Shown here: positions 20,110-22,496 of the stretch, in pieces
Position numbering within the stretch: the first letter of the stretch is position 1
How the letters are laid out: each line of letters starts with the position of its first letter
Virus record (IMG/VR): IMGVR_UViG_3300025934_000014
Coordinates: 58,116 to 122,115 of that record
Reading direction: 5' to 3' (one strand)
From: a virus
Lineage: Duplodnaviria > Caudoviricetes
DNA: 64,000 nt
Notes under the pieces: generated by a model
What the model was told of the DNA's origin: nothing
Seen by the model: the letters and a program-made list of their open reading frames with translations, nothing else
Database searches by the model: none
Program-made: the position numbers and the translations under genes

Positions 20110-20358
20110 ATGCCCCTGACGACGATGAGTGTGTTGCCCGATCTGGGAGATCGCCGGTTTGGAAGTCTGGCGCTGGGTTACGACAAGATCATGCAGATCA
20201 GGGTGGAGCACAGTGCGCTTGCCGCGCTCGCCGCTGCCGCGTGCGAATGCGAAGTCGAAGACCTGACGATCCTCAAGATCCAGCAAGTCACGGCCGCGCT
20301 CGCGAGCGCAAAGAATGCCGCGACGGACGCCGCTGGTGTTGATGGCTCCACGATGTGA
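20110..20358 (+). CDS. hypothetical protein
   Basis: GGAGGAGACGACG-ATG start signal. Confidence 0.55.
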   Translation: MPLTTMSVLPDLGDRRFGSLALGYDKIMQIRVEHSALAALAAAACECEVEDLTILKIQQVTAALASAKNAATDAAGVDGSTM

Positions 20359-20375
20359 CCAGTAGTTCTCCGGTG

Positions 20376-20404
20376 TAGACATTATCAATCGCCTGTGCCA
20401 CGCT
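20376..20404 (+). promoter_or_regulatory. putative promoter for the pentamer array / RAMP gene unit
   Basis: TAGACA-17 bp-CACGCT immediately before the first array unit; weak -10. Confidence 0.4.
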
Positions 20405-20635
20405 GGCGAGCCGGGGCCGGGTAAGGATAGGCGGGGCACGGTTTGCTTCGGTCTGGTGGGGTTAGGTGAGGCCGGGCATGGCGAGGCATGGCTTGGTTTG
20501 GCGAGGCAGGGCTTGACATGGTGCGGTGAGGCAGGGTTGGGTTGTGTCGGGCACGGTAGGTGTCGGGTCGGGCACGGTTGGGTCCGGCGAGGCATGGTGT
20601 GGCCGGGTTCGGTTCGGCCGGGTAGGGTACGGTTT
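20405..20635 (+). repeat. GGY-NN pentamer array 1 (46 units), candidate guide ncRNA
   Basis: Parses as GGCGA GCCGG GGCCG GGTAA GGATA GGCGG GGCAC GGTTT...: 31 in-register units, a 1-nt slip at 20560, then 15 units. Confidence 0.9.
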
Positions 20636-20667
20636 TCTATTACGACGACGAAGGCGGAGACGACGGA

Positions 20668-21282
20668 ATGACAACAGCAACAGCAATTGGGCCAGTCACG
20701 AACGGTGCGCTGGCGACTCTCAAGTTTGAACTCCCATACGTGGCGAGCGTGAGACTGGTCGGCGTGGCCGACATCCTGTTCCACCGGTGGAACGTGGAAG
20801 GGGTTGCATCGAAGGCGCTCGCGAAGAAGGGATCGGCAGCGAAGAAGACCGACGACATCGAGAGCTATGTCTATCGCAACGACGCCGAGGAAATCTGCAT
20901 CCCCGGTGAGTACGTGCGGCAGGCGATCATCAACGCGGCGAAGTACCGTCCGGACCCGCGCAGCCCTCGCAAGTCTGCGATGGACCTGTTCAAGGCAGGC
21001 GTCGTCTCACTCACGGACCTCGCCTCGACGGGCGTCACGAAGTGGGACTTTGAAGACAAGCGGCGCGTGCAGGTTCAGCGTGCAGGTATCACGCGTGTGC
21101 GTCCGGCGCTGAAGCAGGGGTGGGCGATTCAGGTCGAACTGCTGGTGAATCTGCCGGAGTACATCGCGCCTGCGGATCTGCTTGAAGTGATCGTCAACGC
21201 GGGTCGCCTGATCGGACTGGGCGACTTCCGGCCGACGTACGGTCGGTTCTCAGTCGTCAGTTTCGAGTGCCTTCAGGGCTGA
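20668..21282 (+). CDS. stand-alone RAMP/Cas7-like RNA-binding protein
   Basis: N-terminal strand VRLVGVADILFH, YRND..EICIPGEYVRQAI helix motif, TRVRP...W, and C-terminal Gly-rich loop GRLIGLGDFRPTYGRF; GGAGACGACGGA-ATG start. Confidence 0.8.
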   Translation: MTTATAIGPVTNGALATLKFELPYVASVRLVGVADILFHRWNVEGVASKALAKKGSAAKKTDDIESYVYRNDAEEICIPGEYVRQAIINAAKYRPDPRSPRKSAMDLFKAGVVSLTDLASTGVTKWDFEDKRRVQVQRAGITRVRPALKQGWAIQVELLVNLPEYIAPADLLEVIVNAGRLIGLGDFRPTYGRFSVVSFECLQG

Positions 21283-21900
21283 GTGCGGTGGGCCTTGGTC
21301 GGGTTTGGCGGGGCGAGGCATGGTTTGGCTCGCTCTGGTCAGGCTGGGCAAGGCGAGGCGAGGTCGGGTGAGATACGGCTTGGTGCGGCCTGCCTTGGCG
21401 AGGTCGGGCGTGGCGAGGTCCGGTGGGGTTGTGTCTGTCCGGGTGTGGCGAGGCGTGGCGTGGCACGGTCAGGCACGGTGAGGCACGGTCTGGCTGGGCG
21501 AGGTTAGGCGAGGCCGGGCGCGGTTCGGTATGGCGCGGCAGGCTCTACGGCGCGGTGCTTCAGGCACGGCGCGGCAGGTTCTGCCGTGAGGTCTGGTTGG
21601 GCGGGGTTCGGCGTGGCGAGGCTGGCTACGGCCCGGTCAGGCGCGGTGCGGTTTGGTCAGGCATTGGCGCGGCACGGCAAGGTCAGGTTAGGTCGGGTTT
21701 GGCGAGGCATGGCTGGGGCGTGGCAGGGCGTGGCATTGGCGAGGCGTGATGTTGGTCGGGCTTGGTGAGGCAAGGTCCGGTTTGCCAAGGTCAGGCGTCG
21801 GTCGGGTTTGGTAGTGTCAGGCTAGGCAAGGCAGCGGCTTGGCGCGGCGCGGCTCGCTACGGCGTGGATTGGTTTGCCCCGGCGCGGTATGGCGTGGTCT
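21277..21900 (+). repeat. GGY-NN pentamer array 2 (about 115-120 units in two blocks), candidate guide ncRNA
   Basis: 53 in-register pentamers 21277-21541, hairpin-containing break 21542-21589, 61 pentamers with six 1-nt insertions 21590-21900. Confidence 0.9.
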
Positions 21901-21928
21901 TGACATCGCCGTCGATTGGCATTACCAT
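21900..21928 (+). promoter_or_regulatory. sigma70-type phage promoter
   Basis: TTGACA-17-TACCAT. Confidence 0.75.
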
Positions 21929-21966
21929 TGGACGGTAAGGTCAATTCGGAGACGACGGAGGCGACG

Positions 21967-22209
21967 ATGAACGCAGAGATTCCTACCCCTGAACAGGTCG
22001 CAGCGGATGCACGACAGGTCGTGCTCGCGGATGTCTATACCGGGCTTCGCATGGGCGGCTACACCTTCATTAGCGCATTGAAGGCGTTGCGCATCCTCGG
22101 CCTCTCGCTGGCCGAAGCGAAGGCCGTCGCGGACCAGTGCGATGCCCAGCGCGTGGCGATGCAGCAGTTGGCCGTGCTCGAACACTTCCAGTCTGCGGTG
22201 GCGCATTGA
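21967..22209 (+). CDS. hypothetical protein
   Basis: GGAGGCGACG-ATG start downstream of promoter. Confidence 0.6.
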   Translation: MNAEIPTPEQVAADARQVVLADVYTGLRMGGYTFISALKALRILGLSLAEAKAVADQCDAQRVAMQQLAVLEHFQSAVAH

Positions 22210-22467: not shown

Positions 22468-22496
22468 TTGACTTCAGGGAACAGTGCGATTACCAT
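22468..22496 (+). promoter_or_regulatory. sigma70-type phage promoter
   Basis: TTGACT-17-TACCAT with GGGAACAGTG in spacer. Confidence 0.75.

What the first reader, a model, noticed from the sequence alone, without database searches (positions are those of the whole stretch)
21542..21589. Hairpin break and register slips punctuate the pentamer array, possible guide boundaries
Seen: after 53 phased units (21277-21541) the register breaks over about 48 nt containing two small hairpins, GTGC-TTCAG-GCAC (21555-21567) and CGCGGCAG-GTT-CTGCCGTG (21570-21588). The following block has single-nt insertions at 21665, 21716, 21737, 21753, 21799 and 21835. Non-GG units (GCY, TGT, GAT) recur roughly every 4-12 units across the arrays. 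Inference: these features may mark processing sites or the ends of individual guides. Alternatively, the distal block is older and decaying.
Basis: partly seen in the sequence, partly recalled or inferred. Interest (0 to 1): 0.7.

Follow-up and report, generated by a model that had tools for sequence, protein, structure and literature searches.

The report
Punctuation inside a phage VIPR guide array
The hairpin break and one-base slips are real features of the guide-RNA array of a phage VIPR system, a CRISPR-like DNA silencer first described in 2026; they are partial punctuation at best, so this is a new example of a known kind.

Summary
Every coordinate in the observation checks out. The region is a VIPR locus (bioRxiv 10.64898/2026.04.26.720920). 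It has a 204-aa Vipr/RAMP gene (20668-21282) flanked by same-strand GGY-NN guide arrays (20405-20635 and 21277-21900).

- **The break:** the 48-nt break is a duplicated ~36-nt module whose second copy forms an 8-bp GC hairpin. It resembles the hairpin caps that follow about a third of related arrays. On its own it is only weakly significant.
- all slips are +1 hexamers (GGYNNN). Across 93 related arrays hexamers outnumber tetramers 78 to 8, and they do not track loss of GG. This argues against neutral decay.
- **Block sizes:** hexamer-bounded blocks fall in the published 9-16-unit guide range more often than chance (P about 0.006).
- **Limits on the boundary reading:** decoded guide-target pairs in relatives show several guides in one in-phase array with no mark. 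Two lower-confidence matches (L014, and the window's own hit in G001) run through a hexamer.
- **Non-GG units:** they lie inside matched guides, so they are not punctuation.
- **Window target:** one suggestive hit, 23/23 bases over 21743-21799.
- **RNA data:** none available.

This scan has noted VIPR arrays in at least 145 other genomes, and +1 slips in 8 of them.

The parts
20405..20635 (+). Upstream vrRNA array: 46 GGY-NN units as 30 units, one +1 slip near 20555-20565, then 15 units. It runs straight into the vipr ribosome-binding site with no 3' hairpin.
20668..21282 (+). vipr gene: a 204-aa RAMP/Cas7-like protein that would polymerise on the repeats, one protomer per unit.
   Evidence: phrog_4652. 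PDB 36pp 'SUSP1 Vipr protein': E 8e-8 with the single sequence, 6e-17 with a profile over nearly the full length. AlphaFold2 model pLDDT 92. Best folds are Csm3 and type VII Cas7.
21277..21541 (+). Downstream array, proximal tract: 53 in-phase units with no slip. The start overlaps the vipr stop codon.
21542..21589 (+). Register break: two tandem copies of a ~36-nt module (21527-21556 and 21563-21592). Each is three units plus a C/T-rich irregular piece. Candidate 3' cap of the proximal tract.
21570..21588 (+). 8-bp GC hairpin CGCGGCAG-GTT-CTGCCGTG. In the minimum-energy fold its 3' arm closes a ~53-nt nested stem-loop spanning 21535-21587.
21590..21900 (+). Downstream array, distal tract: 61 units cut by six GGYNNN hexamers into blocks of 15, 10, 4, 3, 9, 7 and 13 units. 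Hexamers lie at 21660-65, 21711-16, 21732-37, 21748-53, 21794-99 and 21830-35.
21738..21799 (+). Candidate 12-unit guide. Units 21743-21799 spell 23/23 bases of a site in a complete 38.5-kb viral genome, provided hexamer GATGTT pairs three bases. It is bounded by hexamers on both sides.
   Evidence: Post-hoc p is about 0.02-0.05.
21900..21928 (+). Promoter-like site TTGACA-17-TACCAT for the next gene. It marks the 3' limit of the array. The same motif recurs at 22468-22496.

Best explanation
The finding lies inside the downstream guide-RNA (vrRNA) array of a phage VIPR system. Vipr protomers would bind one GGY-NN unit each and expose the NN pairs to read double-stranded DNA with a one-base skip.

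The 48-nt break is most likely a boundary between two vrRNA tracts. It is a duplicated, partly degenerate tail module, and the hairpin in its second copy would cap the 3' end of the 53-unit tract, as the pseudoknot does in phage SUSP1.

The +1 slips are GGYNNN hexamers. They are a selected or tolerated family-wide feature, not decay. They put the following units out of register, so they probably end or restart the protein filament at many sites ('staggered' arrays). They are neither necessary nor always sufficient to delimit a guide. Non-GG units are ordinary internal degeneracy.

Shown here: the identity of the system, the anatomy, the +1 bias and the validity of the decoding rule in relatives. 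Inferred: capping by the hairpin and filament interruption at hexamers.
For: - **System identity:** searches place the protein in the Vipr family. Searches show the arrays. Searches give the published mechanism and the 'staggered arrays' of fig. S18.
- **Conservation of the architecture:** arrays lie beside the homologue in 12 of 14 viral loci at the first threshold, and weaker ones in a 13th and in phage DSL-LC04. The parser also finds them in most of the 74 loci fetched from bacterial and archaeal genomes.
- **Hairpins:** 30 of 92 arrays have a stem of at least 7 bp and 5 GC pairs just 3' of the array, often with GNRA or UUCG loops. Only 18 of 92 5' flanks do. Gaps between neighbouring arrays hold 8-10-bp hairpins in L068 and L088.
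- **The +1 bias:** 78 hexamers against 8 tetramers in 3313 units, binomial p 1.5e-15.
- **Not decay:** hexamer density and GG loss are uncorrelated, rho 0.15.
- **Block sizes:** 40 blocks fall in the 9-16-unit range against 27.8 +- 4.6 expected, P 0.006. Without the window P is 0.015.
- **The window itself:** the terminal blocks are 15 and 13 units. The only extended target hit ends exactly at a hexamer and starts one unit after another.
Against: - The hairpin is not statistically exceptional (p 0.13 on simple shuffles). No close relative shares this array, so its conservation cannot be tested.
- The window's other two array 3' ends have no hairpin.
- Slip spacing ranges from 2 to 33 units, and the window has blocks of 3 and 4 units.
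- Long arrays of 57-141 units have no slip or only one.
- Validated matches show two guides abutting in phase with no mark (L037, 16+12 units).
- One match runs through a hexamer with a 3-nt target step (L014; score 17, roughly 25-30% chance of being false by the shuffles).
- The window's own hit runs through GATGTT with a 4-nt step.
- No RNA ends were available.
Confidence: 0.5

Rival explanations
1. Hexamers are tolerated one-base bulges inside guides and have no boundary role. A 6-nt unit can loop out or pair its extra base while the filament continues. A 4-nt unit cannot be accommodated and is purged. That alone would give the +1 bias.
For: The L014 match continues on one 3-nt diagonal through GGCGCA, with 6/6 bases matching before it and 6/6 after. 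The window's hit continues through GATGTT. Blocks of 2-4 units are common, 10 of 44 spacings. Boundaries exist without hexamers.
Against: Hexamer-bounded blocks are enriched at 9-16 units, mostly through the 3' terminal block: 16 observed against 8.1 expected, P 0.002. The two read-through examples disagree on the target step (3 against 4 nt), and each is only borderline significant.
Confidence: 0.33
2. The break is a duplication or recombination scar where two arrays were joined, and the hairpin is incidental. Guide boundaries would be set elsewhere, for example by filament length or host RNases.
For: The break is two 77%-identical tandem copies 36 nt apart. The hairpin is not beyond shuffled expectation. 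Stems of similar size occur inside the periodic upstream array.
Against: Hairpins directly after arrays are frequent in the family. The whole 91-nt region folds better than 195 of 200 shuffles. A scar and a cap are not mutually exclusive.
Confidence: 0.25
3. The distal block is older and is decaying neutrally. Slips and non-GG units are accumulated damage.
For: All six slips of this array lie in the distal block and none in the 53 proximal units. Hexamers cluster in some arrays and are absent from others.
Against: Neutral indels should go both ways, but +1 outnumbers -1 by 78 to 8. GG retention is 55/61 distal against 46/53 proximal. Hexamer density does not correlate with non-GG density.
Confidence: 0.07

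Closest known systems
VIPR systems with 'staggered' vrRNA arrays (bioRxiv 10.64898/2026.04.26.720920, text and fig. S18 legend)
   Same: A Vipr RAMP protein beside long same-strand GGY-NN tracts. Consecutive blocks are offset by one base and lack individual conserved tails. The system is phage-encoded.
   Different: The preprint says staggered arrays were not confirmed by small-RNA sequencing, and I could not see the figure. Here the blocks are irregular (3-15 units). One 53-unit tract has no offset at all. A hairpin break sits in the middle.
Type II VIPR of Escherichia phage SUSP1 (same preprint; structures in 10.64898/2026.04.26.720927, PDB 36pp)
   Same: A homologous protein (profile E 6e-17), with the sequence around the G-loop aligning between the two proteins. 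GGY-NN units. Arrays both upstream and downstream of vipr. A structured element 3' of a repeat tract.
   Different: SUSP1 vrRNAs have 9-16 repeats, each followed by a conserved ~40-nt pseudoknot tail, and a vap1 gene follows vipr. Here the tracts have 46, 53 and 61 units. There is only one simple hairpin and no conserved tail. No neighbouring gene is shared with any related locus. The structure preprint gives 'up to 30 repeats' as the natural maximum; relatives here reach 101 and 141 units.
Class 1 CRISPR crRNA bound by Cas7 backbones
   Same: A RAMP-fold protein polymerising on a guide with a fixed step and periodically unpaired bases. Best structural matches are Csm3 and type VII Cas7.
   Different: There is no repeat-spacer array, Cas6 or adaptation genes. 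The step is 5 nt with 2 of 5 bases read, rather than 6 nt with 5 of 6. The target is double-stranded DNA read with a skip.

Membership tests
VIPR system | A Vipr protein: a small single-RRM RAMP homologous to SUSP1 Vipr | tested here: met
   PDB 36pp_D: E 8e-8 with the single sequence, E 6e-17 with a profile over residues 32-205. The model has pLDDT 92. Its top folds are Csm3 and type VII Cas7.
VIPR system | Tandem GGY-NN (YNNGG) pentamers in the intergenic DNA flanking vipr, on the gene's strand | tested here: met
   46 and 123 units. GGC or GGT begins 145 of 169 units. These are the only two such tracts in the 122-kb genome.
VIPR system | GGY conserved while NN is hypervariable among relatives | tested here: met
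   Arrays of 14 related loci keep GGY but share almost no 3-unit words.
VIPR system | NN pairs read a DNA target with a one-base skip | tested here: inconclusive
   Relatives: met. Ten arrays score 17-26 against other loci, while the usual top score in shuffles was 15-17, with one outlier of 20 in 11 runs. The window: one hit of 23/23 bases, post-hoc p about 0.02-0.05. No self-target above shuffled controls.
VIPR system | A structured 3' tail after each repeat tract | tested here: inconclusive
   One hairpin at 21570-21588 after the 53-unit tract. None at the 3' ends of the upstream array or of the distal tract.
VIPR system | An accessory vap gene next to vipr (typical, not universal) | tested here: not met
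   No neighbouring ORF of the window has a homologue beside vipr in any of about 95 loci. The downstream array starts at the vipr stop codon.
VIPR system | vrRNAs are expressed and bound by Vipr | not testable with these tools
   No RNA run holds the locus.
Staggered vrRNA array subtype | Consecutive blocks offset by one base within a continuous tract | tested here: met
   Seven +1 hexamers and no -1 slip outside the break, whose only tetramer is GGTG at 21554. Family-wide the ratio is 78 to 8.
Staggered vrRNA array subtype | Each block is a separately processed vrRNA | tested here: inconclusive
   Block sizes are enriched at 9-16 units, P 0.006. But blocks of 3-4 units exist and two matches cross a hexamer. 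RNA ends are unavailable.
Hammerhead-interspersed vrRNA arrays | A self-cleaving ribozyme between vrRNAs | tested here: not met
   No Rfam family at E <= 1 in 20200-22100 on either strand.

The most novel reading that the evidence does not exclude
The GGYNNN hexamer is a dedicated punctuation mark. A single extra base throws the next units out of the protein's 5-nt register, so Vipr filaments, and after trimming the mature guides, begin and end there. Guide length in tail-less arrays would then be set by protein phase alone, with no nuclease site or repeat handle. The 53- to 141-unit unpunctuated tracts would be read as several overlapping or abutting guides.
Probability: 0.3. Interest if true: 0.5.

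Novelty: new member of a known kind. Interest (0 to 1): 0.3.

Why it matters
VIPR was described only in 2026, and how guides are delimited in arrays without individual tails is still open; the preprint's 'staggered arrays' were not confirmed experimentally.

This locus and its 90 relatives give numbers that bear on that question:
- a ten-to-one excess of +1 over -1 register slips;
- guide-sized terminal blocks;
- simple GC hairpin caps in place of the SUSP1 pseudoknot;
- uninterrupted tracts far longer than the reported maximum of 30 repeats;
- direct evidence from decoded targets that several guides can share one in-phase tract and that degenerate units lie inside guides.

These points help annotate vrRNAs correctly and help design experiments. 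They do not change the picture of the system.

Tried and rejected
- **RNA evidence:** no RNA holder is listed for the locus. Laying four runs gave only short DNA-type contigs, some identical to parts of the arrays, with no information on ends.
- **Exact-pattern target scans:** decoded 9- or 10-unit seeds went to six viral-contig scans and one metagenome scan. Three found nothing. Five of the six hits did not extend and lie in AT-rich or unrelated contigs. The 10-unit metagenome hit covers exactly block 21666-21716, but my estimate is that about one such hit is expected by chance. Only the G001 hit extended.
- **Other window guides on G001:** none scores above shuffled controls.
- **Self-targeting in the 122-kb genome:** none above shuffles.
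- **Shared guides with relatives, to map cassette boundaries:** the arrays are too diverged.
- **Codon-orientation signal along arrays, to find guide lengths:** autocorrelation of 0.02-0.04 is too weak to use.
- **Non-GG units as periodic punctuation:** spacing looks geometric.
- **GGCATT as a special junction:** 7 of 78 hexamers against about 4 expected, not convincing.
- **Rfam, including hammerheads:** nothing.
- **Intrinsic terminator at the break:** no U tract.
- **The genome search 'relatives':** not available for a virus record.
- **Supplementary tables of the preprint:** not held.

Full report
**Observation**

Direct reading and two register segmentations confirm every coordinate.
- From 21277 there are 53 pentamers in one phase, 46 of them starting with GG. 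The first units overlap the stop codon of the preceding gene.
- The register then fails over 21542-21589. That stretch holds GTGC-TTCAG-GCAC (21555-21567) and CGCGGCAG-GTT-CTGCCGTG (21570-21588).
- The tract resumes at 21590 and runs to 21900. It is interrupted by six-base units ending at 21665, 21716, 21737, 21753, 21799 and 21835.
- All six slips are +1, as is the single slip in the upstream array (~20555-20565).
- Two such tracts, and only two, exist in the 122-kb genome. Both are on the + strand.

**What it is**

The two tracts flank a 204-aa ORF (20668-21282).
- The ORF matches phrog_4652.
- It matches the solved 'SUSP1 Vipr protein' (PDB 36pp): E 8e-8 with the single sequence and 6e-17 with a family profile over nearly the full length. 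The sequence around the G-loop aligns between the two proteins.
- An AlphaFold2 model (pLDDT 92) finds Csm3 and type VII Cas7 backbones as its best folds.

A literature search led to the VIPR preprints. They report the following:
- Vipr protomers polymerise on vrRNAs built of GGY-NN units.
- The NN pairs read double-stranded DNA while skipping every third base.
- SUSP1 vrRNAs have 9-16 repeats capped by a 3' pseudoknot.
- R-loop formation proceeds 3' to 5'.
[quoted passage not shown] The window is therefore a VIPR locus and the finding concerns its array architecture. This scan has already noted VIPR arrays in at least 145 other genomes, and +1 register slips in 8 of them.

**Relatives**

The protein family is large: 7328 proteins at E <= 0.001 among length-matched candidates and 1156 representative clusters. 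I collected 14 viral loci, one cultured phage, two assembly contigs and 74 loci from bacterial and archaeal genomes. Most of them carry same-strand GG period-5 arrays beside the gene. Architectures vary:
- three short arrays of 13-17 units, each with a conserved hairpin tail (L068; L077 and L081 are similar);
- uninterrupted tracts of 57, 59, 101 and 141 units (L016, L009, L011, L078). These are far beyond the 'up to 30 repeats' given in the structure preprint.

In 93 non-redundant arrays (3313 units) a parser with equal penalties for short and long units finds 78 hexamers, 8 tetramers and 7 heptamers. The binomial p for 78 against 8 is 1.5e-15.
- The hexamers read GGYNNN with a variable NNN. 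GGCATT is the commonest but is not clearly enriched.
- Hexamer density does not correlate with the density of non-GG units (rho 0.15, p 0.33).
- In the window the distal tract keeps GG as well as the proximal one, 55/61 against 46/53.

Neutral decay would give indels in both directions and would track loss of GG, so it is disfavoured.

I tested the published 9-16-repeat range as an a-priori bin. Blocks delimited by hexamers and array ends fall in it 40 times against 27.8 +- 4.6 under random placement (P 0.006; 0.015 without the window). Most of the effect comes from the 3' terminal block, 16 against 8.1 (P 0.002). The window's terminal blocks are 15 and 13 units. However, spacings range from 2 to 33 units, and the window's blocks are 15, 10, 4, 3, 9, 7 and 13.

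**Targets**

Exact gapped patterns from seven window blocks were scanned against IMG/VR (six scans) and JGI metagenomes (one scan). Five of the six hits did not extend beyond the seed and look like chance.

The exception is block 21754-21799. It hit a complete 38.5-kb viral genome (IMGVR_UViG_3300047552_000081, here G001).
- The match extends 5' to 23/23 bases over 11 units (21743-21799), provided the hexamer GATGTT pairs three bases and the target step there is 4 nt.
- The match stops at the hexamer GGCGTC on the 3' side and one unit after the hexamer GGCATT on the 5' side.
- It covers the ribosome-binding site and start of a small ORF at G001 1382.
- Allowing for the paths and hits examined, the extension has p of about 0.02-0.05. 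This is suggestive only.
- No other window guide matches G001 above shuffles.

**Validating the rule in relatives**

I ran an all-against-all scan of 93 arrays against 1.4 Mb of loci, using the one-base-skip rule.
- Shuffled arrays reach 17 or more in about 0.6 arrays per run and 18 or more in about 0.1.
- The real arrays give scores of 26, 26, 21, 21, 19, 18, 18, 18, 17 and 17.
- L037 and L039 spell a conserved site about 200 nt upstream of vipr in a dozen Phycisphaerales loci. L042, L033 and L023 hit other VIPR-bearing loci. L011 spells 9 units inside the vipr gene of L016.

These pairs answer part of the question:
- Non-GG units lie inside the matches and their NN still pair: six within the 16-unit L037 match and three within the L042 match.
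- Arrays longer than a guide carry further units in the same phase with no mark at the junction. Examples are L037 (16+12), L039 (10+29) and L011 (9 of 101).
- The last two or three units before the 3' end are often unmatched.
- The L014 match (score 17, roughly a 25-30% chance of being false) runs through the hexamer GGCGCA on one 3-nt diagonal.

Hexamers are therefore neither necessary for a guide boundary nor always a boundary.

**The hairpin break**

The 91-nt region folds at -44.1 kcal/mol with z = -2.3. The 3' arm at 21580-21587 closes a ~53-nt nested stem-loop. As a simple stem it is matched by 13% of shuffles.

Family context helps more.
- 30 of 92 arrays have a stem of at least 7 bp and 5 GC pairs starting within a few bases of the array's 3' end. 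These often have GNRA or UUCG loops and reach 12-13 bp in L022, L025, L026 and L078. Only 18 of 92 5' flanks have such a stem.
- Short gaps between neighbouring arrays hold 8-10-bp hairpins in L068 and L088.
- Phage DSL-LC04 has a hairpin plus U-tract break inside its array.

The break is therefore best read as a tail or cap that separates a 53-unit tract from the distal tract. It may equally be a duplication scar, and the window's other two array ends have no hairpin. No Rfam family, hammerheads included, matches. No terminator-like U tract follows.

**Verdict**

- Non-GG units are not punctuation, decay is unlikely, and slips are not a general delimiter.
- The system is already described and this scan has met it many times, so this is a new member of a known kind with some useful quantitative detail.
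- RNA end mapping is the decisive missing experiment.

Noticed in passing
L037:2808-2887, L039:2783-2832 and L042:2884-2963, against L022-L035, L072 and L083 (~2741-2790) and L025, L028, L058: VIPR arrays of some Phycisphaerales/Planctomycetota prophage loci spell conserved sites (30 of 32 bases) about 200 nt upstream of the vipr gene of other such loci. This is VIPR-against-VIPR targeting outside the E. coli phages where it was reported.
   Followed up: partly
L078:3572-4277, L011:3119-3625: Uninterrupted in-phase GGY-NN tracts of 141 and 101 units, with one and two hexamers. This is several times the 'up to 30 repeats' stated in the structure preprint. L078 ends in a 13-bp GC hairpin.
   Followed up: partly
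L001, L003, L004, L005, L006, L007 and L014, just 3' of the upstream array (e.g. L003:2914-2935): A conserved hairpin, GGGCCGCG-loop-CGCGGCCC, sits between the upstream array and the vipr ribosome-binding site in one sub-clade. The window and its closest relatives (L009, L016, L017) lack it.
   Followed up: partly
window 21900-21928 and 22468-22496: A repeated promoter-like motif, TTGAC(A/T)-17 nt-TACCAT, precedes successive small genes downstream of the array. Each is followed by a GGAGACGACG-type ribosome-binding region.
   Followed up: no
window 20364-20635, 21373-21576, 21516-21694: Short contigs identical to parts of the arrays occur in soil metagenomes of other studies and in a 2025 wastewater run. 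The same phage, or its array, is therefore present without change in several samples.
   Followed up: no
L050-L053 (~2806-2941 in L051-L053): An identical 27-unit array and flanks occur in a Proteobacteria MAG, two Thermomonas species and a Tepidimonas genome. This suggests a recently spread prophage or mobile element.
   Followed up: no
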